DNA of 40,504 nt from a virus (taxonomy: Duplodnaviria; Heunggongvirae; Uroviricota; Caudoviricetes), in IMG/VR virus record IMGVR_UViG_2526164632_000038. One strand, written 5' to 3'. Shown piece after piece: positions 1 through 35,456 of the stretch (positions are counted from its first letter, which is position 1; the number at the start of each line of letters is the position of its first letter). The position numbers and the translations under genes were made by a program. The notes beneath the pieces were generated by a model. It ran no database searches, was not told the DNA's origin, and worked only from the letters and a program-made list of their open reading frames with translations.

Positions 1-247
1 CGGATATAACGGTGTTTTCAGGACGTACGACTGGTTCCGTGGAAAATTGTCCGTAAAGGCAGGCATCAAGTTCCTGCTCCGACATGCCTGCGGGCAAAGG
101 CCACGAAAGGCCAGCTCTCCGAAAGCGCACGAACATATTACAAACTGTTGATTTTGGTACACCCAGGCGACGCCCGGCCACAACCCGGGGTAAATGTTCT
201 TCAAAGTGAAGACGTAAAGCTTCAGTGATCCAGGTCCGGTGTTTCAT
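1..247 (-). mobile_element. Partial IS21-family istA-like transposase N-terminus (runs off window start)
   Basis: Minus-strand ORF from ATG at 247..245 to the window edge: MKHRTWITEALRLHFEEHLPRVVAGRRLGVPKSTVCNMFVRFRRAGLSWPLPAGMSEQELDACLYG. HTH followed by an AGLSWPLP motif that I recall from IstA proteins; family assignment is from memory only. Confidence 0.4.
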
Positions 248-326
248 ACGATAGTGTCCATTAAAAATGATGGACATTATTTTTGTAGAGCCGGAGGAAA
301 CAGACCAGACGGTTTAAATGAGCCGG

Positions 327-506
327 TTACGCTTTATATGAGCCAGGAGCATCTAAACAGGAACATGCCGGGATACCGACACCCACAGCAAGATATTCAG
401 TTGATGTGGAAATATATTCCCGTGTCTCACCATCATAATTGTAAACGGTAATGTCTCCCGCCTTTGTGGTGATGAGTTCGCTATTTAATACAGCTTTATT
501 CATCAT
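327..506 (-). pseudogene. Truncated tail fibre assembly protein (N-terminal 59-aa stub)
   Basis: ATG overlaps the tail fibre stop (ATGA at 503..506). Translation [59 protein letters not shown] then stop; far shorter than typical Tfa proteins and directly abuts the IS21-like fragment. Confidence 0.45.
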
Positions 507-1366
507 GCGGCCCTTACGATATAATTAAAAGCGATGTTACGAGGACGAGTTTCTGTACCTACATTTTCACTAATTTCACCATAACGTTTAACACTACGAG
601 AGCTAATAGCTCGTAGTGAGGAAGGCACATTAAGACCGGGTTCGTCCGTTTTAACTATTCCCCCGTCACCGTATGTAGCCAGTATTCCTGGGTTTACTCC
701 TTCCCGTGCACTTCCTGCGGCGAGTCCGTCCCCTGTCCATAATTCCATATAGTGTGCATGGTCCAAAATTGTGTGTGGCTGCCAATTAAGCAAAGCGCGA
801 CCAGTATCAATCCCGCGACCGTCATCCCAGCCACGAATAAATTCACCGCGTAAATCAGGCAATTTATTGGTCGGGTAAGCCTTTGCCAGTTCCGGGTATT
901 CTTCAGCAGAAAAAGCCGCACCGTTGCATTTCAGCCAGCCTGTTGGCGGTGTGACTGAAGGCCACGGAACAGGCACACCAACAGGTAATGCAGAACCTTC
1001 TCCCAAACCAAGGTTTTCGAGAGCCGTTTGCACAGTGCCATCCGATTTGATATCGCCAAACGGATTCTTGCGGCTCAGGTATTCAACAGCAAACCCCGAT
1101 CCCAGCAATTCAACAAAACCGGGCAGATCACCATTATCAAGCACATCCCGTTGCGTTTTGTCACTTACAAACTGGGCCAGAGCTGCAGCAATAAAGCTGG
1201 CCTGTCGAATGGCTTTGTTCACCTGCGCACTGGATGCTTTCCCTGCTGTAAATCCGGATAAAAGCGCAGGCAACGCTTCCCATTCCTCCTGCGACATAAC
1301 ATTGGCATTTCGATCAGTTGCAAACGCTTTAAAGTCATTTTTCGCCATCAGAGTAATACTCCCCAT
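503..1366 (-). CDS. Phage tail fibre protein
   Basis: 287-aa ORF at the distal end of the tail/baseplate cluster, Gly/Pro-rich, tail-fibre-like C-terminus, followed by a coupled tfa-like ORF. Confidence 0.6.
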
Positions 1367-2028
1367 GCTCCTACATCAAAACCACTGATGAATTCGTTAT
1401 CCATATCAAAACCAAAAAATTTTGAGCCTTCCGATGGGGTTTCCACCGAAGGAGTTTCAATGCCCCCCGCCCATACCCCGGCGGCTTTTACTGTGAGATA
1501 CCCCTGTTTAATTGCCGCAATTAACTCACGCGATACATCTGAAATATCAGTATCAGGAAAGACCCAGACCGATATCGTCATGTCCTGGTTATCGACTATC
1601 TGCATTCGCAGCCCGGATCCTGCTGTTGCCGCGTCAAGAATTGCCGGAAGCGAATCATTCCGTCCGTCCCAGTTATTAATCGCAATCTTCGCTTTAAGGA
1701 TGACACGATAAGTTTCATCGCTGAGGTACATGTATCCGGAATCAGGATCGTATGGTCCCTGCCATACACCCTGATCATATCCAAGCCCGTCGGTATCCCA
1801 GCTGAAATAAACACCTGAGATAGGCTGGCTGACAACACGGCTACGTCCGATCCACAATCCCAGAATGTCAAGTTGCACACCAACCGCAGAGTCAATATCA
1901 AATGCAGTAATCAGCCCTCTGGTGGCCGCCGCAACATCAATAAGCGGCCGGGTCATCAGATCAACATGTGCAAGAAATTTAGGTTTGGTGGCGTGGTAGT
2001 TCGTGATTAGTTCGGTGTATTTGCTCAT
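1348..2028 (-). CDS. Baseplate/tail-fibre-associated phage protein (resembles DUF2612-type proteins)
   Basis: 226-aa ORF between the baseplate J-like gene and the tail fibre, overlapping both neighbours; family resemblance is from memory. Confidence 0.45.
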
Positions 2029-8181: not shown

Positions 8182-8768
8182 TAGCCGCCCCCCAGTAATG
8201 ACGCCACGTTACCCGTGATGCTTTTCAGCAGTGAAGTATCTGGAGGCTTGGTGGTTTTGTTGCCGCTGTTCTGTACCGCCGACGTGCTGGCCCCTTCCTT
8301 CATGTTGGTTTTATCCGCGACGGAAATCTGCTGTGTCCGGGAGATAAGGACCTCCCTCAGGGTGAGGACGGCGGACAGGACGTTTTCGGTTGTCTTGTCC
8401 GTCGTCACTTCCAGCGCCCGGATCAACATGTTGCTGTACAGTCGTTTACCGGTTACCACATCGAAGGGGATACGGCTTTCCTGCAGATCCAGTAGCTCCT
8501 GATACGTCTGCTGAGGACTCAGGCCGAGCAGGCTGGTAGCCGTCAGGTTACTGGCAAAATCCAGCAATGCGCCACCACCGGCGAAACCAACCTCCATCAC
8601 CACTTCTGACGGTTTTTTATAGGCATGATCAGCGACAGCGGCCCCGACCTCTACCGGATGCTCTGTTATTTCAAGCATATCTGTATGCTTCTCTGAAATA
8701 ACAACACAGGGAACAATCATTCCTATTTTTCTGCTCTGCTGATGAAAAAGTGTAGAGAGAATATCCAC
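8181..8768 (-). CDS. Tail protein immediately downstream of the tape measure
   Basis: 195-aa ORF, start overlaps the tape measure stop. Confidence 0.4.
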   Translation of the reverse strand: MDILSTLFHQQSRKIGMIVPCVVISEKHTDMLEITEHPVEVGAAVADHAYKKPSEVVMEVGFAGGGALLDFASNLTATSLLGLSPQQTYQELLDLQESRIPFDVVTGKRLYSNMLIRALEVTTDKTTENVLSAVLTLREVLISRTQQISVADKTNMKEGASTSAVQNSGNKTTKPPDTSLLKSITGNVASLLGGG

Positions 8769-10756
8769 TAACCCACCCTCACCTGATTACTTCGCATGAC
8801 CTGAGCATTTGCAGACTGTTGCCGACGTGCAACCTCATTACCGACAGCGTGCGGATCTCCACCACCGTAAATGTGGTAGGTATTTTGCTGGTTAACCTCT
8901 GTCACTTTGCCACTAATTCCCGCCACGGCAGCCTTATTAATCAGCTCCCGAGAATAGATATTTCTTCCATTCTCATGCTGGATAATGCTGCTCATCAATG
9001 CTGACATGGTTTGCGGATCGCTCATATTCAGGGCAGCCCGGGGATCCACTCCCAGTCGTTGCGATACAGCCCTGATATACGCAGTTGTGTTGTTATTATC
9101 AGACGCAGGTGCCCAGGTAGAGATAATTTTCTCCACACTGTTTATTCCCCGTCCGGCGTACAGCATTAACTGACGAGCAAGAGCCCGTAATCCATCAAAA
9201 GCAGTTTCAAATCTGGCAAATCGCCCGCCCGGGCGTTCAAGAGAAGCCCCTGCCTGACCAGCAAAATTAAGGTTTCCCGGATTGTTATTCCGTTCTCCTC
9301 GTTTCGTAGCCTGTGCATGTTGTTCCGGCTCATCATCACCAAACCAGCCGCGTACCGTCCGGCCCACACTGCGGGGATCGAATCCCCAGTGCTCTTTAAT
9401 CCAGTCGGCAGTACTGTTAGCGCTGTCTGTAACCATCGGCATCGCTGACGGATTTTCGCTGCCCTGATTAAGTATCTGTTTGCCGATGCTGACGGCATCA
9501 GCCCAGCGGCCATCTTTGATAGCGTTGAGCAGGTCGGCGATCATGTTCAGCATTTTGCTGAATTCGCCCATCTGGTCGATGAAGTTGCTGAAATCCCACT
9601 TCAGGGACCATGATTTGGGGTCAATATTGAGCAGTTTCGCCAGCGCTTTCACCAGGTCGTTAACGGTCGTTTTAAGGTCACGAACCATCTTCAGCGCGGC
9701 ATCGACCTCCGGTTTCCACTTGCCCCAGTCAATCAGGCTGTCGCCGCCTTCCTTCCAGGTCTGATAGTCCTCCCACAGGAGGGCAATACCCGCCGCCAGC
9801 GCGGTAATGAGGCCAATCGGCGACATCCAGAACGTACTGTTCAGAATGCGCAGCGCAATCGTCAGTGCGCCAAACAGCGAGATCAACTCCCGCGTTTGCT
9901 TATCCAGCGATTGCCACCAGGTGATAAGGCCTGATGTCCCCTCAATCAGTCTGAAGAACAGCCGCCCGATAATATCCCCGAGCGCCAGAATGCCTTTTAT
10001 GGCTTTCGTCAGGGTCTGCTCGATACGAGGGAAGTTGTCCAGGATATGGCGGCGCAGGGTGTCCAGCGAACCCGCAAGCCCCCCCGCAAGATTAGAGCCG
10101 ATTTTGTCACGGGCCATGCCTGCCATCGCGCCAAACTCACGCAGGGAGGTCATAAATTTGTTGGAGCTTCTGGCCGCCTCGTCAGCATTGAAGCCGATAG
10201 CTTTCGCCATTGCGCTGTACTGCCCGGAGAAGCCACCCACACCCCGGCGCATCGCCATAAGGGTATTTTCGTCAATGCCCAGCATCTGCGCATACTGGTT
10301 AGCCCGGTAATACGGCATGCTGCTGAGTTTCTGTCCAACGCCCGTAAAAATAGCGGCCATGTCACGCATGTTACCGCTGGCATCACGGGTCTGTACGCCC
10401 AGGCGATTCAGAAAGCCTTCTGCACCGGGATTGTTACGAATAAACCGGGATAGGCTTTCCAGAGAAGATCGCGCAGCGTCCACGCTGCCGCCAACCTGCG
10501 AAACCGCATAGCCAATAGACTGAATTCCCTGGACTGTCGCGCCGGTGCGCTGTGACGCCCAGTAAAGATTATCCAGGCCGGAGGCGATCTTAGCCGTGAA
10601 GGCCACCACGGACAACGCAGCTCCTTCAACAGCCAGCCCCATTTTGATGACATTTGCAGTTGTACCGGCGAGGACAGAACCGAACTTTTTCGCTCCTGCA
10701 TCATCCACACTGAAGCCAAGCGAGACGAGGAAATCTTTAATAGTTTCAGCGTTCAT
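8768..10756 (-). CDS. Tail tape measure protein
   Basis: About 662 aa from ATG at 10756 (MNAETIKDF...) with GGAGAGAGGA upstream; long Ala/Gly-rich helical protein after chaperone, tube and sheath genes. Confidence 0.65.
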   Translation of the reverse strand: MNAETIKDFLVSLGFSVDDAGAKKFGSVLAGTTANVIKMGLAVEGAALSVVAFTAKIASGLDNLYWASQRTGATVQGIQSIGYAVSQVGGSVDAARSSLESLSRFIRNNPGAEGFLNRLGVQTRDASGNMRDMAAIFTGVGQKLSSMPYYRANQYAQMLGIDENTLMAMRRGVGGFSGQYSAMAKAIGFNADEAARSSNKFMTSLREFGAMAGMARDKIGSNLAGGLAGSLDTLRRHILDNFPRIEQTLTKAIKGILALGDIIGRLFFRLIEGTSGLITWWQSLDKQTRELISLFGALTIALRILNSTFWMSPIGLITALAAGIALLWEDYQTWKEGGDSLIDWGKWKPEVDAALKMVRDLKTTVNDLVKALAKLLNIDPKSWSLKWDFSNFIDQMGEFSKMLNMIADLLNAIKDGRWADAVSIGKQILNQGSENPSAMPMVTDSANSTADWIKEHWGFDPRSVGRTVRGWFGDDEPEQHAQATKRGERNNNPGNLNFAGQAGASLERPGGRFARFETAFDGLRALARQLMLYAGRGINSVEKIISTWAPASDNNNTTAYIRAVSQRLGVDPRAALNMSDPQTMSALMSSIIQHENGRNIYSRELINKAAVAGISGKVTEVNQQNTYHIYGGGDPHAVGNEVARRQQSANAQVMRSNQVRVG

Positions 10757-10985
10757 TATCCTCTCTCCATTTCTCAATGCGTCGCTGGTTATCCGCTTTT
10801 ACCGCCAGATGGTCATTCAAGAGAGCAATGTCATACAAATCGACAGAGCCATCTTTAAGTGCTGTATAAGGAATTAACCCGGCGTCAACCGGATTGAGAA
10901 GGTAGGACAGCCCGTCCGGCAGGCTGTTAAACGTCAGCCCTGTTGCAGGCTCTGCGTCGTGCTGGTAAGGGGTGTAGGCAAAAAA
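10746..10985 (-). other. -1 frame extension of the tail assembly chaperone (putative programmed frameshift product)
   Basis: Slippery heptamer T TTT TTG at 10985..10979 in the chaperone 0 frame; the -1 frame is then open for 74 codons with no start codon of its own and ends at a TGA overlapping the tape measure start. Confidence 0.5.
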
Positions 10986-11386
10986 TTTCCCAGCGAATCG
11001 GCGACCACCCGCGCCACCAGCTGCAGCATGACCAGCAAGTCAATATCATCAAACATCAGTTCGCCCTGGGTAAATACCGGCACCCATCCGTCCATATGAC
11101 GCCGCGATACCACCGCAAGACAGGGATGAATAATCGCATCGGTGTCATCTTCGGTCAGGGAAGACAGTTCCTCAGCGATACGCGGGAGCATGGTTTCAAA
11201 CACCGGTTTTAACTGTTCGAATTTCACGGTGTCGATTTTGCCGTCAGCAGGCAAACGGGAGCGAATACTCCCGAAATCTGACATCATTCCTGCCAGCACC
11301 GGCAGAAGTTTGCGGGTCACTTTCAGCTGGTCAAAAACGCTGAGTTTTGCCGTGCGATATTTCACGCCTTTAATTTCGAATTCCAT
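10934..11386 (-). CDS. Tail assembly chaperone
   Basis: 150-aa ORF between tail tube and tape measure; carries the slippery site near its 3' end. Confidence 0.55.
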   Translation of the reverse strand: MEFEIKGVKYRTAKLSVFDQLKVTRKLLPVLAGMMSDFGSIRSRLPADGKIDTVKFEQLKPVFETMLPRIAEELSSLTEDDTDAIIHPCLAVVSRRHMDGWVPVFTQGELMFDDIDLLVMLQLVARVVADSLGNFLPTPLTSTTQSLQQG

Positions 11387-11389
11387 GCA

Positions 11390-11830
11390 TTAAAACTCCC
11401 CGAGAACCTGGTCAATCTTGCCGCAGTCAAACACCCACGGCATCGTATTACCGGTTTTAGCGTTGGCGTTATCCGGTTGTTTCTGGAACGCAACACTGCG
11501 TGCCGTGATGATGTCGCCGCTGACCTTGTTGCGGATCACGATAACGTTATTCCCCCATGTGGCAGAAGACTGGCTCTGTGCGTTATACGCCAGCGACAAT
11601 TTTTTATTTGTCGGTGATGTCTTCAGAAGGTTAACGGTAATCGTCCCGCTTTTATCTGCATGGAGACTGTGCATCACTTCGCCATCAGCACCGATGGTCA
11701 TGGTGTTTTTAGGACCGCCCATCGCAACCACAATCCCCTCTTCAGAACTTGCCGAACCGTACCCGAGGTCAATCGAACCTGTCGGCCCGGTCAGCGTCGC
11801 AGTGACATCCATAAAAGAATAGGTAGACAT
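11390..11830 (-). CDS. Tail tube protein
   Basis: 146-aa ORF immediately after the sheath-like gene. Confidence 0.5.
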   Translation of the reverse strand: MSTYSFMDVTATLTGPTGSIDLGYGSASSEEGIVVAMGGPKNTMTIGADGEVMHSLHADKSGTITVNLLKTSPTNKKLSLAYNAQSQSSATWGNNVIVIRNKVSGDIITARSVAFQKQPDNANAKTGNTMPWVFDCGKIDQVLGEF

Positions 11831-11840
11831 TCACTTCCCC

Positions 11841-12986
11841 TTAGCGAACAACGTTAATCTGTACGTCAGCGTAATGAACCGCGCCTGCAAGTTTTATTGC
11901 AGCCTGAATCACCGGAGCCTTACGGGCTTCACGTTCTGATTGAGCCTGTTCATCCAGCGGCTGAGCGTATACGTAATAACCTTTGGGCAGTGTGTCACCT
12001 GATGACAACTGACCAAGGTCGCCCCCGTTCCATACGCCCGGAGCAATCAGTCCATTCTGAACGGCCTGATCCAGTGATTTTTCAACATTTGATAACAGTC
12101 GGGTAATACCGGCTTCAGTCTGGGGAACTTTCGTGGTGCTGGTATAAAGCAGGTTATAGAGGTTGGTCTGCACATAATTCTGTAACCAGTCCAGGCCGTG
12201 GCGTTCATCAAAGAAATCGCCGTTAGCCATCACTCCCTGCTGGAGGATAGCCGTATCATTCTGGTAGTACACGAATACATTGCAGTTTTTTGCATCAAGT
12301 GCCGATGCCTGGCTGACTGTCAGTGTTTCATACCCGATACCCGGCTCCTGCTTAAACTTGAGCGTAATCGCGGTATTACTGCCATTGAAATTAACCGTGA
12401 ATGCCCGGCCAAATGCAGATAACGCAGCGTATTTATTACCCGATGAATACTGAATAAAACTGCGTGAATATCCGGCGGTTTTCAGTTTTGATGCCAAATC
12501 ATCGCTGGATGCAGTCTGCAGGCATTTCTCATCGCTTGTCGTAATCGCCAGAATACGGCTTACAGAAGAGGATTCGATCGCCGCAGCCACTTTCAGCCAG
12601 TCTGCATCCTGAATATCTTCATCGTCTGCAATCCCCAGCCCATACCATGAAGTATAATCAAGCATGGCATTCACAGCCTGCTCCAGCGTCTCAGGCGTGG
12701 CCTGTTCGCTGTCTCCCTTCGTTTTCACCCAACGACCAACAAAAACCTCCTGAGGTTTCGGTGATTGAGAGAAAAACACCTGCGCAGCCTTATATTCTGG
12801 TGATTCCACGCCAAAATCTTTTCCAATATCTTCCGCGGCAGAATAACGGCGAATGCGCTCACTTACCGGAATGATTGTGGACGGGCCGAGAATGAGTAAT
12901 GCACCAAAATTTCGCCCTGATGCTGCACGCGGCGACATGATCACATCAACATTAACAACGTTTGATACAGGCAAGCCCTGTGCCAT
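11841..12986 (-). CDS. Tail sheath-like protein
   Basis: 381-aa ORF preceding tube and chaperone (contractile-tail gene order). Confidence 0.5.
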
Positions 12987-34694: not shown

Positions 34695-35456
34695 ATGCAG
34701 GAACTAACTGAAATGCCGATCACCTATCCATACCCGAGAGAAACTTTTCCTGACTTTTTGAGGGAGTGTGGGTTCACCAATTTTTCCCACGAACAGCGTG
34801 AGACTTGTGACTGCTATCGTTTAACGAATGGCGTAATTGTTAACCTTTACACCACCCGGACCATTCAGTTTCAAGGTAACCCTCAAGAACGTCCCAATGT
34901 TGAAACTGCAATAATGACCCATTTAGGAACGCCGCCCACGGCAACACCACTAGCCGTAGAACAGCCATCTGAGCTCCCCAAAAAGATATTCATTGTTCAC
35001 GGCCATGACCATACTGCAAAGGAGCAACTTGAGCTAATCCTTCATAAACTTGGATTACCAGACCATTTCATTTTGCAGAATACGGGAGGGACTGGACTCA
35101 CCATTATTGAAGAGCTTGAACGTGAAATTGGGCAAGGACAAACTGCTACCCGTTTCGGGATTGTTCTTTTGACACCTGATGATATGGGATACTCAAAGCG
35201 CGCCGGTGAAGCAGAAATCCAACCCCGCGCAAGACAGAACGTTGTACTCGAGATGGGTATGCTTCTTTCGTCCTTAGGGCGCAGCAATGTAGCAATCCTT
35301 CAGAAACAGCACCTAGAACAGCCTTCTGATGCTAACGGGATTTTGTATCTGAATTTCAACGACCATGTACGTGAAACAGTTCCTCGTCTAGTGCAACGGT
35401 TACAAAATTCTGGTTTCGAATTTACACAAGCTCAAATAGCTAACGCTTCCTCGTAA
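34695..35456 (+). CDS. TIR-like domain protein (candidate defence effector)
   Basis: C-terminal region KIFIVHGHDHTAKEQLELILHKLGLPDHFILQNTGGTGLTIIEELE...LLTPDDMGY...PRARQNVVLEMGMLL matches my recollection of the TIR-like nucleotide-binding family (FIVHGHD start, LTPDD, conserved Glu in NVxxExG); N-terminal 95 aa unassigned. Confidence 0.55.
   Translation: MQELTEMPITYPYPRETFPDFLRECGFTNFSHEQRETCDCYRLTNGVIVNLYTTRTIQFQGNPQERPNVETAIMTHLGTPPTATPLAVEQPSELPKKIFIVHGHDHTAKEQLELILHKLGLPDHFILQNTGGTGLTIIEELEREIGQGQTATRFGIVLLTPDDMGYSKRAGEAEIQPRARQNVVLEMGMLLSSLGRSNVAILQKQHLEQPSDANGILYLNFNDHVRETVPRLVQRLQNSGFEFTQAQIANASS

What the first reader, a model, noticed from the sequence alone, without database searches (positions are those of the whole stretch)
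10746..10985. Probable programmed -1 frameshift in the tail assembly chaperone
A slippery heptamer T TTT TTG lies 19 codons before the chaperone stop. The -1 frame from that point is open for 74 codons across the whole gap to the tape measure start, with no start codon of its own. This is the arrangement expected for a G/GT-type chaperone fusion.
Basis: partly seen in the sequence, partly recalled or inferred. Interest (0 to 1): 0.5.

Follow-up and report, generated by a model that had tools for sequence, protein, structure and literature searches.

The report
Frameshifted phage tail assembly chaperone
An E. coli prophage tail-chaperone gene very probably uses the classic ribosomal -1 slip to make a short and a long protein from one start. 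This trick is known in phages lambda and P2 and is already annotated in two related phages, so the case is solid but ordinary.

Summary
On the minus strand a 150-aa tail assembly chaperone (10934..11386, Pfam Phage_TAC_15) lies between the tube gene and the tape measure gene. T_TTT_TTG sits in phase at 10985..10979. The -1 frame then runs stop-free for 77 codons to TGA 10748..10746, overlapping the tape measure ATG (10756) by 11 nt. It has no ATG or GTG.

The -1 extension encodes a conserved domain (Pfam DUF6889). Its substitutions fall mainly on third codon positions of the -1 frame. In 19 related phage records and 80 genomes of different species it is always in the -1 frame relative to a Phage_TAC_15 ORF.

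Refinement: the heptamer is the last of three in-phase heptamers in an invariant run, G_GGA_AAT_TTT_TTG (10991..10979). The feature shared by the whole family is an in-phase T_TTY at a conserved Phe codon, which here is A_AAT_TTT, 3 nt upstream. No RNA structure is supported downstream of the slip site.

RefSeq instead calls a separate "DUF6889 family protein" starting at CTG. GenBank records of phages Mulock and Magia already annotate the frameshift.

Verdict: a new member of a known kind, of modest interest. No protein data exist for this family.

The parts
10934..11386 (-). Zero-frame tail assembly chaperone ORF (150 aa, 16.8 kDa), the 'G-like' short product
   Evidence: ORF list. Pfam Phage_TAC_15 E=4.9e-31 and PHROG 1688 'tail assembly chaperone' E=3.6e-65. 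Mass.
10979..10991 (-). Compound slippery run G_GGA_AAT_TTT_TTG, holding three in-phase X_XXY_YYZ heptamers
   Evidence: Sequence and heptamer scan. The run is invariant in 9 enterobacterial phage relatives with 51-99% chaperone identity and in 80 of 80 IMG/VR relatives.
10982..10988 (-). A_AAT_TTT, the heptamer at the family-conserved slip position (P site Asn134, A site Phe135). Inferred main shift site.
   Evidence: In 99 of 99 loci scored the codon before the Phe ends in T, and the Phe codon is TTT in 86 of 99, including 33 of 36 loci with GC >= 0.60. For double-Phe loci the script scored the second Phe. H_HH.U_UU.Y motifs are among the most efficient in E. coli (PMC4066793).
10979..10985 (-). 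Alternative or additional shift site.
   Evidence: The same heptamer is the -1 shift site of P2 E/E+E' as reported in PMC3091744. The U_UUG tetramer is only weakly shifty in E. coli reporters.
10746..10982 (-). -1 frame extension (78 codons from the re-read TTT, plus TGA). Joined to the chaperone it gives a 213-aa, 24-kDa 'GT-like' fusion.
   Evidence: Translation. Substitutions per codon position in this frame are 9/7/35 against SEN34 and 8/8/35 against YP3. In the overlap, the -1 frame is 56% identical among relatives and the zero frame 33%.
10755..10871 (-). DUF6889 domain (fusion residues 173-211) inside the -1 extension
   Evidence: Pfam PF21829, 70.6 bits (cutoff 23.9), E=9e-20; PHROG 4364 E=1.9e-23.
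8768..10756 (-). Tape measure protein (662 aa from ATG 10756). It is in the zero frame of the chaperone and its start overlaps the -1 ORF stop (ATGAACGCTGA).
   Evidence: PHROG 2276 'tail length tape measure protein' E=9e-284. The RefSeq CDS has the same start. The overlap is conserved in most relatives.
11390..11830 (-). Tail tube protein directly upstream; inferred partner of the extension domain
   Evidence: Pfam KPP10_Orf10 (also labelled Phage_Tube_PhiTE or DUF3277) E=8.8e-61.
11841..12986 (-). Tail sheath protein, showing a contractile-tail (myovirus) context
   Evidence: Pfam DUF3383 E=1e-100; PHROG 205 'tail sheath' E=1.4e-135.

Best explanation

Most ribosomes read the zero frame and make the 150-aa chaperone. 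A minority slip back one base on the run G_GGA_AAT_TTT_TTG. The likeliest site has tRNA-Asn in the P site and tRNA-Phe in the A site on A_AAT_TTT. T_TTT_TTG is an alternative or additional site. These ribosomes then read 77-78 more codons in the -1 frame and terminate at the tape measure start. The product is a 213-aa fusion of the chaperone with a DUF6889 domain.

By analogy with lambda gpG/gpGT and P2 E/E+E', both forms would coat the tape measure protein through the shared N-terminal part. The rarer extension would recruit the tube protein so that the tail polymerises to the measured length. Neither form would remain in the virion.

Shown here: the sequence anatomy, conservation of the two-frame layout, the slip motif, and coding selection in the -1 frame.

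Inferred only: that the slip happens, its frequency, the exact codon, and the binding partners.
For: (1) Anatomy. The gene order is sheath, tube, chaperone, -1 ORF, tape measure, with stop/start overlap.

(2) Frame conservation. The DUF6889 ORF is in the -1 frame relative to an upstream Phage_TAC_15 ORF in 80 of 80 species-representative genomes. These include Acinetobacter, Achromobacter, Burkholderia, Photorhabdus, Desulfovibrio, Bryobacteraceae and Brucella. The same holds in 19 of 19 other phage records and 80 of 80 IMG/VR relatives.

(3) Coding in the -1 frame. The extension matches Pfam DUF6889 at E=9e-20. Third-position substitutions dominate (9/7/35 and 8/8/35). In the overlap the -1 frame peptide is more conserved than the zero-frame tail (0.56 against 0.33).

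(4) Slip motif. An in-phase T_TTY at the Phe of the LGxF motif is present in 99 of 99 loci. TTT is kept even in GC-rich genomes (33 of 36), and the preceding codon always ends in T. That points to selection on the nucleotides themselves.

(5) No independent start. The window has no ATG or GTG. Of 82 loci, 66 have no ATG upstream of the conserved domain and 35 have no ATG, GTG or TTG. Only 8 have any start with a Shine-Dalgarno (SD) core. Database 'DUF6889 proteins' start at inconsistent residues and range from 43 to 78 aa.

(6) Natural fusions. Single-ORF Phage_TAC_15+DUF6889 proteins exist with no homopolymer at the junction (L022). One contig carries a short and a long chaperone as two tandem genes (L023).

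(7) Precedent. P2 shifts at TTTTTTG with no downstream structure (PMC3091744). Lambda G/GT biology is reviewed in PMC5009743. The homologous join is annotated in Mulock and Magia.
Against: No proteomic, reporter or genetic evidence exists for this family in anything I could find. The literature search for DUF6889 returned nothing, and the Mulock announcement does not discuss the frameshift.

No stimulatory RNA structure is detectable downstream. Fold z-scores are -0.9 and -0.3, and the consensus fold is -1.97 kcal/mol with no covariation. No Rfam frameshift element matches. No SD-like element sits at a fixed distance upstream. Efficiency therefore rests on the slippery run alone, as reported for lambda and P2.

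The exact shift codon is unresolved among three overlapping heptamers.

The single-sequence statistic is weak (2% of shuffles).

The function of the extension is inferred purely by analogy. There is no detectable sequence similarity to lambda T or P2 E', no solved homologue, and the AlphaFold model was unusable (pLDDT 40).
Confidence: 0.88

Rival explanations
1. The -1 ORF is an independent small gene, the 'DUF6889 family protein' annotated by RefSeq/PGAP. It would be translated from its own non-canonical start, or by termination-reinitiation after the chaperone stop.
For: PGAP annotates a 54-aa CDS starting at CTG (window 10910) in E. coli 2011C-4251 and hundreds of other genomes. Many databases hold 43-78-aa stand-alone entries.
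Against: The window has no ATG or GTG, and the only TTG removes most of the domain. Annotated N-termini differ from record to record and use CTG, TTG or internal Met. Of 82 loci, 35 have no ATG, GTG or TTG before the conserved domain, and only 8 have a start with an SD core. The CTG overlapping the chaperone stop is not conserved; relatives have TTA there. The -1 peptide is already conserved upstream of every proposed start, from the slip site onward (F-[FY]-x-R-[TA]-[PA]-Y). Independent initiation would not require a fixed -1 phase in 80 of 80 genomes.
Confidence: 0.04
2. The same fusion is made by transcriptional slippage. RNA polymerase would add one extra U on the T6 run, which puts downstream codons in the -1 frame without any ribosomal event.
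For: The window has a T6 run. Photorhabdus and Providencia relatives have T7. The resulting protein (GNFFAY...) would be identical to the A_AAT_TTT ribosomal product. Assemblies with T7 in the DNA exist.
Against: About 60% of the family (C_CCT_TTT_AT and A_AAT_TTT_AT types) has only a T4 run yet keeps the same two-frame layout. What is conserved is the phase of T_TTY relative to the codons, which matters to ribosomes and not to polymerase. From general knowledge, not tested here: efficient slippage in E. coli usually needs runs of about 8-9 or more.
Confidence: 0.05
3. The layout is a decayed or mis-assembled gene. An originally single chaperone-DUF6889 ORF would have been broken by a 1-nt deletion in a homopolymer, either in a pseudogenised prophage or through sequencing error.
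For: In-frame versions exist. About ten 212-213-aa entries, including E. coli ISC7 CDL28562.1 and contig L021, carry T7 instead of T6. Genuine single-ORF fusions exist in distant lineages.
Against: The two-frame form is the rule. It occurs in 80 of 80 IMG/VR relatives with an invariant T6, in 368 complete E. coli genomes, in isolated infectious phages (vB_EcoM-606R2, SEN34, YP3, Mulock) and in 80 of 80 other species. A 150-aa cluster alone has 1014 members, against 16 in the fused cluster. The zero-frame tail also keeps a defined stop at a conserved distance from the slip site.
Confidence: 0.02
4. The open -1 frame is a chance feature of a non-coding spacer between the chaperone and tape measure genes.
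For: In a single sequence, 2% of shuffles are stop-free in that frame, so a lone case would not be compelling.
Against: The extension matches a Pfam domain, shows third-position substitution bias and is conserved across phyla.
Confidence: 0.01

Closest known systems
Bacteriophage lambda gpG / gpGT (Levin, Hendrix & Casjens 1993; Xu, Hendrix & Duda 2004, 2013, 2014; reviewed in PMC5009743)
   Same: The chaperone gene lies immediately upstream of the tape measure gene. A -1 shift near its 3' end extends it into an ORF with no start of its own. The slippery heptamer works without a required downstream structure. The expected outcome is two products from one start. The first heptamer of the run here (G_GGA_AAT) resembles lambda's G_GGA_AAG, which I recall from memory.
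   Different: Lambda is a siphovirus, whereas this is a contractile-tail phage with sheath and tube genes. There is no detectable sequence relationship: the proteins hit Pfam Phage_TAC_15 and DUF6889 and not lambda's families. The slip site is a Phe-codon T_TTY motif within a compound 13-nt run. Ratio and binding partners have not been measured.
Bacteriophage P2 E / E+E' (Christie et al. 2002, as cited in PMC3091744)
   Same: It is an E. coli myovirus. The chaperone lies between the tube (FII) and tape measure (T) genes. The -1 shift occurs at the identical heptamer TTTTTTG, and no downstream hairpin is present. Short and long products come from one start.
   Different: P2 E is 91 aa and E+E' 142 aa, against 150 and 213 aa here. 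There is no Pfam-level similarity. In the family studied here the conserved slip position is the codon before the TTG, and most members lack TTTTTTG altogether.
Klebsiella phage Mulock (MN098327) and Burkholderia phage Magia (NC_070954) 'tape measure chaperone frameshift product'
   Same: These are true homologues. The conceptual 213-aa fusion matches them at 59% and 36% identity by tblastn, and gene order is the same. Mulock has the identical GGGAAATTTTTTG run. A joined CDS is annotated in both.
   Different: Those joins are annotators' predictions, not experiments, and the Mulock paper does not mention the frameshift. Magia uses C_CCT_TTT. The E. coli prophage and its closest phage relatives (vB_EcoM-606R2, SEN34, YP3) are not annotated with the frameshift.

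Membership tests
G/GT-type programmed -1 frameshift tail assembly chaperones (Xu, Hendrix & Duda 2004 definition) | The gene pair lies between the major tail/tube gene and the tape measure gene | tested here: met
   Tube 11390..11830, chaperone 10934..11386, tape measure 8768..10756, all on the minus strand.
G/GT-type programmed -1 frameshift tail assembly chaperones (Xu, Hendrix & Duda 2004 definition) | The second ORF overlaps the 3' end of the first in the -1 frame and lacks its own initiation signals | tested here: met
   The overlap is 103 nt. There is no ATG or GTG and the first TTG comes late. The -1 phase holds in 80 of 80 plus 19 of 19 relatives.
G/GT-type programmed -1 frameshift tail assembly chaperones (Xu, Hendrix & Duda 2004 definition) | A slippery sequence in the overlap, conserved among relatives | tested here: met
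   G_GGA_AAT_TTT_TTG is invariant in close relatives. An in-phase T_TTY is present in 99 of 99 loci.
G/GT-type programmed -1 frameshift tail assembly chaperones (Xu, Hendrix & Duda 2004 definition) | Two proteins are actually made from one start in a set ratio, and both are needed for tail assembly | not testable with these tools
   This needs western blot or mass spectrometry plus genetics. No published data were found.
G/GT-type programmed -1 frameshift tail assembly chaperones (Xu, Hendrix & Duda 2004 definition) | The common part binds the tape measure protein and the extension binds the major tail/tube protein | not testable with these tools
   Inferred by analogy only (PMC5009743). The structure model failed (pLDDT 40).
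Sequence homology to lambda G/T or P2 E/E' | A significant match to the Pfam families of those proteins | tested here: not met
   Only Phage_TAC_15 and DUF6889 are hit at E <= 0.01. The system is therefore a functional analogue, or a homologue too distant to detect, and not a member of those sequence families.
Pfam Phage_TAC_15 (PF21822) | Score above the gathering threshold (22 bits) | tested here: met
   108.3 bits, E=4.9e-31, covering residues 6-138.
Pfam DUF6889 (PF21829) | Score above the gathering threshold (23.9 bits) | tested here: met
   70.6 bits, E=9e-20, on fusion residues 173-211, covering the full 40-position model.
Transcriptional-slippage recoding | A long homopolymer run (about 8-9 nt or more in E. 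coli; from general knowledge) conserved as a run | tested here: not met
   The window has T6. Most family members have T4 with the same architecture.
-1 frameshift sites with a 3' stimulatory stem-loop or pseudoknot, or a 5' SD-like stimulator (dnaX / IS type) | A conserved structure 5-9 nt downstream, or an SD-like element 10-14 nt upstream | tested here: not met
   Downstream fold z-scores are -0.9 and -0.3. The consensus fold is -1.97 kcal/mol with 0 covarying pairs. Rfam gives nothing. The upstream fold z-score is +1.2. No anti-SD complementarity appears at a fixed distance across 95 sequences.

The most novel reading that the evidence does not exclude
In the whole Phage_TAC_15/DUF6889 family the recoding signal may be a minimal in-phase T_TTY tetramer, meaning A-site tRNA-Phe slippage. 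It is kept against codon bias from Enterobacteria to Acidobacteria. A few members have P-site codons that cannot re-pair (TCT, AGT, GCT, GAT). The enterobacterial branch also shows synonymous-site conservation in the ~40 nt upstream of the slip. This could mark an unrecognised 5' stimulatory element or a nascent-peptide effect in place of the usual 3' structure.
Probability: 0.15. Interest if true: 0.45.

Novelty: new member of a known kind. Interest (0 to 1): 0.25.

Why it matters
Mechanistically this adds nothing new, because tail-chaperone -1 frameshifting has been textbook since lambda G/GT and P2 E/E+E'. Its practical value is in annotation.

- It assigns Pfam DUF6889 a role as the frameshift-encoded C-terminal ('T-like') domain of Phage_TAC_15 chaperones.
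- RefSeq entries called 'DUF6889 family protein', and GenBank entries called 'NTP pyrophosphohydrolase', appear to be artefacts of missing this recoding event. They have CTG or other ad hoc starts. The prophage is present in 368 of 5,426 complete E. coli genomes and in many other genera.
- The broad comparative set is a clean natural data set for how slippery motifs are maintained. It has a universal T_TTY, three interchangeable heptamer classes, and lineages that replaced the frameshift by an in-frame fusion or by two genes.

Tried and rejected
(1) Downstream stimulatory RNA. Folds of 69 nt and 119 nt were no better than shuffles. The consensus fold of 9 relatives showed no structure. Rfam returned only a chance miRNA hit at E=0.55.

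(2) Upstream hairpin (GGCG...CGCC). The fold was weaker than shuffles, z = +1.2.

(3) Upstream SD-like stimulator. An anti-SD duplex scan over 95 non-identical upstream sequences showed no peak at a fixed distance. Mean energies were only -2 to -3 kcal/mol.

(4) Terminator in the gap. One hairpin at 10895..10876(-) was found against 0.9 expected, with a poor T-tail. No promoter-like site was found.

(5) Structure route. AlphaFold2 on P0001 with a 54-row alignment gave pLDDT 40 and pTM 0.28. This is unusable, so no fold search was run. PDB sequence and profile searches found nothing significant.

(6) The search for related loci with the 16-sequence chaperone alignment failed because no stretch was conserved enough. 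I switched to the extension alignment.

(7) An empirical 'open -1 frame' null drawn from the window's own ORFs was uninformative. Neighbouring genes often occupy that frame (26 of 76). I replaced it with shuffles of the gap.

(8) Christie et al. 2002 (PMC135442) is not held. The P2 facts are taken second-hand from PMC3091744.
Full report
**1. What is in the sequence**

All relevant genes are on the minus strand. The order is:
- tail sheath, 11841..12986 (Pfam DUF3383, PHROG 205);
- tail tube, 11390..11830 (KPP10_Orf10 / DUF3277);
- a 150-aa ORF, 10934..11386, that is a tail assembly chaperone (Pfam Phage_TAC_15 E=4.9e-31; PHROG 1688 E=3.6e-65);
- a 177-nt stretch with no annotated gene;
- the tape measure protein, starting at ATG 10756 (PHROG 2276 E=9e-284).

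The window as a whole is a nearly complete temperate myovirus-type prophage with integrase, CI-like repressor, portal, capsid and baseplate genes. It is identical over 901 nt to a prophage of E. coli 2011C-4251. It is 99.7% identical to Escherichia phages vB_EcoM-606R2 and its relatives, 84% to Yersinia phage YP3 and 77% to Salmonella phage SEN34, genus Brunovirus. The locus is present in 368 of 5,426 complete E. coli genomes.

**2. Check of the observation**

TTTTTTG occurs once in the chaperone ORF, at 10985..10979, in the X_XXY_YYZ phase. The zero-frame codons are AAT134 TTT135 TTG136.

From the heptamer the -1 frame is open for 77 sense codons (10979..10749). It stops at TGA 10748..10746, 11 nt inside the tape measure ORF (ATGAACGCTGA). 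The tape measure gene itself is in the zero frame of the chaperone, so the gap is read by neither neighbouring gene.

The stretch has no ATG or GTG. The first TTG would give only a 30-aa peptide.

Two of its counts are slightly off: the heptamer is 15 codons before the stop, not 19, and the -1 run is 77 codons, not 74.

In the single sequence, 2% of dinucleotide-preserving shuffles leave that frame stop-free. That is suggestive but not decisive.

**3. The heptamer is part of a larger run**

The site is G_GGA_AAT_TTT_TTG (10991..10979). It holds three overlapping heptamers, all in the slippery phase: G_GGA_AAT, A_AAT_TTT and T_TTT_TTG. The 13 nt are invariant in nine enterobacterial phage relatives whose chaperones are only 51-99% identical. 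They are also invariant in all 80 close IMG/VR relatives.

**4.

A tblastn search with the conceptual 213-aa fusion against 50,697 phage records found 40 records. Every listed record matched in two pieces, which is the pattern expected when the two halves lie in different frames. In 19 of 19 loci fetched, the -1 frame is open 55-75 codons beyond the zero-frame stop and ends at or just past the tape measure start.

I then scanned one genome per species (GTDB) with a profile of the extension. In 80 of 80 loci the DUF6889-like ORF lies in the -1 frame relative to an upstream ORF that matches a chaperone HMM, and it overlaps that ORF. The genera include Acinetobacter, Achromobacter, Burkholderia, Cupriavidus, Photorhabdus, Morganella, Desulfovibrio, Bilophila, Brucella, Kaistia and Bryobacteraceae. 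If the two ORFs were unrelated genes, the phase would not be fixed.

**5. The -1 ORF is coding**

- The extension matches Pfam DUF6889 (70.6 bits against a 23.9-bit cutoff) and PHROG 4364.
- Substitutions against SEN34 and YP3 fall 9/7/35 and 8/8/35 on -1-frame codon positions 1/2/3. Codon differences are 27 synonymous against 11 non-synonymous, and 25 against 13.
- In the overlap between the slip site and the zero-frame stop, the -1 peptide (FFxRTPxQRDAxP) is 56% identical among relatives. The zero-frame tail is 33% identical.
- Across the deep family the -1 peptide F-[FY]-x-R-[TA]-[PA]-Y begins right at the slip site.

**6. Which codon slips?**

I aligned 99 loci on the conserved chaperone motif L-G-x-F.
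- The codon before the Phe ends in T in 99 of 99 loci.
- The Phe codon is TTT in 86 of 99, and in 33 of 36 loci with GC >= 0.60, where TTC would be expected.

For double-Phe loci the script scored the second Phe. In those loci the codon before the first Phe also ends in T, with one exception (L173, GGG).

So an in-phase T_TTY is universal. It is usually embedded in C_CCT_TTT (34 loci), A_AAT_TTT (23) or T_TTT_TTY (33). A handful have only the tetramer, with preceding codons TCT, AGT, GCT or GAT.

In the window the homologous position is A_AAT_TTT (10988..10982).

Reporter data for E. coli place H_HH.U_UU.Y among the most efficient motifs. They rank the U_UUG tetramer only 1.8-3.6-fold above background (PMC4066793). 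On the other hand, P2 E/E+E' is reported to shift at exactly TTTTTTG (PMC3091744). I therefore treat A_AAT_TTT as the likeliest site and T_TTT_TTG as a real alternative. The two products differ at one residue, F136 or L136 (24,003 or 23,969 Da).

**7. No stimulator found**

- Downstream folds are no better than shuffles, with z = -0.9 and -0.3.
- The consensus fold of nine relatives is -1.97 kcal/mol with no covariation.
- Rfam has no match.
- An upstream hairpin is not supported, z = +1.2.
- No Shine-Dalgarno-like (SD-like) complementarity appears at a fixed distance across 95 sequences.

This agrees with what is reported for P2, where no downstream hairpin is present.

One thing remains unexplained. 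Synonymous differences drop from 55% of same-residue comparisons (744 of 1,354) in codons 1-119 to 18% (55 of 300) in codons 120-136. GTG GCG CGG GTG GTC GCC is invariant in 8 of 9 enterobacterial relatives. The -1 frame cannot be read there in some relatives because it has stops just before GGGAAAT, so dual coding does not explain the drop.

**8. Rivals**

(a) An independent small gene, as RefSeq annotates it (54 aa from CTG at 10910).
- Annotated N-termini in databases are inconsistent, 43-78 aa, starting at CTG, TTG or internal Met.
- Of 82 loci, 35 have no ATG, GTG or TTG before the conserved domain, and only 8 have any start with an SD core.
- The -1 phase is fixed across the family.

(b) Transcriptional slippage on T6. 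Most of the family has only T4 but the same layout. What is conserved is codon phase, which matters to ribosomes and not to RNA polymerase.

(c) A broken gene or a sequencing error. The two-frame form is the rule in isolated infectious phages and in hundreds of genomes. Fused entries are rare. About ten are 212-213 aa; one that I inspected has T7 instead of T6, and one comes from E. coli ISC7. These look like homopolymer errors or rare mutants.

(d) Chance. This is excluded.

**9. Rosetta-stone evidence**

An exhaustive search with the extension found about eight divergent proteins of roughly 190-210 aa that carry the domain at the C-terminus of a chaperone-like sequence. I checked two at the DNA level.
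- L022 is a clean in-frame fusion with no homopolymer at the junction (GGC TAC TTC TCG TAC).
- L023 carries two tandem genes: a 159-aa chaperone-only protein and a 191-aa chaperone+DUF6889 protein.

Other lineages therefore make the long form without recoding. This supports the view that DUF6889 works as a C-terminal extension of the chaperone.

**10. Comparison with what is known**

Functionally this is the lambda G/GT and P2 E/E+E' arrangement (PMC5009743; PMC3091744). It shares P2's heptamer and its contractile-tail context.

By sequence it belongs to different families, Phage_TAC_15 and DUF6889, with no detectable similarity to lambda or P2 proteins and no solved structure.

The homologous join is already annotated in Klebsiella phage Mulock, which has the same GGGAAATTTTTTG, and in Burkholderia phage Magia. 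It is not annotated in the closest phages or in RefSeq E. coli genomes. I found no publication that discusses it.

**11. Verdict**

My confidence is about 0.88 that a -1 ribosomal frameshift yields a 213-aa chaperone-DUF6889 fusion.

It is a new member of a known kind. The main value is in correcting annotation and in giving DUF6889 a role. The main open points are the exact slip codon, the efficiency, and the unexplained synonymous constraint upstream. Interest: 0.25.

Noticed in passing
window 10992..11030 (-), chaperone codons ~120-133: Synonymous-site variation collapses just upstream of the slip site. GTG GCG CGG GTG GTC GCC is invariant in 8 of 9 enterobacterial relatives. Synonymous differences are 18% here against 55% in the rest of the gene. 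The -1 frame is not readable there in some relatives. A hairpin and a fixed-distance SD-like element were tested and not supported, so the cause is unknown. It could be a 5' modulator, a recombination block or a nascent-peptide constraint.
   Followed up: partly
L021 (Logan SRR23924998) 1895..1912; protein cluster of P0001, including E. coli ISC7 CDL28562.1: About ten public assemblies encode the chaperone-DUF6889 fusion as a single 212-213-aa ORF. The one inspected has T7 instead of T6 in the slippery run. This is probably a homopolymer sequencing error, but it could be a rare slipped-strand mutant locked into the fusion form.
   Followed up: partly
L023 (ENA ERZ22921146 NODE_33095) 231..1285; L022 (Logan ERR10900000_1837) 1038..1664: Distant lineages dispense with the frameshift. 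L023 has two tandem chaperone genes, one of 159 aa and one of 191 aa carrying DUF6889. L022 has a single in-frame 208-aa fusion followed directly by Dit-like and baseplate genes, with no tape measure gene between them.
   Followed up: partly
window 10746..10910 (-); RefSeq WP_071819661.1 and relatives: RefSeq/PGAP annotates the frameshift extension as a stand-alone 54-aa 'DUF6889 family protein' starting at CTG. Older GenBank records call homologues 'NTP pyrophosphohydrolase'. Both appear to be annotation artefacts that have propagated widely.
   Followed up: yes
window 34695..35456 (+): A 253-aa ORF with a CAP12/Pycsar-effector TIR domain (Pfam PF10137, E=2.9e-31) sits between the DNA polymerase A gene and the SNF2 helicase gene of the prophage replication module. 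It may be a prophage-carried anti-phage defence gene.
   Followed up: no
window 10876..10895 (-): An 8-bp hairpin (CCGG UUGAC GCCGG core) lies inside the -1 ORF and was flagged as terminator-like. It is not above chance (1 found against 0.9 expected), has a poor U-tail and is broken in several relatives. It is also about 84 nt from the slip site, too far to act as a frameshift stimulator.
   Followed up: yes
L017 (Burkholderia phage vB_E192a), L015 (Edwardsiella phage ZHS), L121, L127, L181: A few family members keep only the T_TTT tetramer, with a P-site codon that cannot re-pair in the -1 frame (TCT, GAT, AGT, GCT). This implies slippage of the A-site tRNA alone, or a lower efficiency.
   Followed up: no
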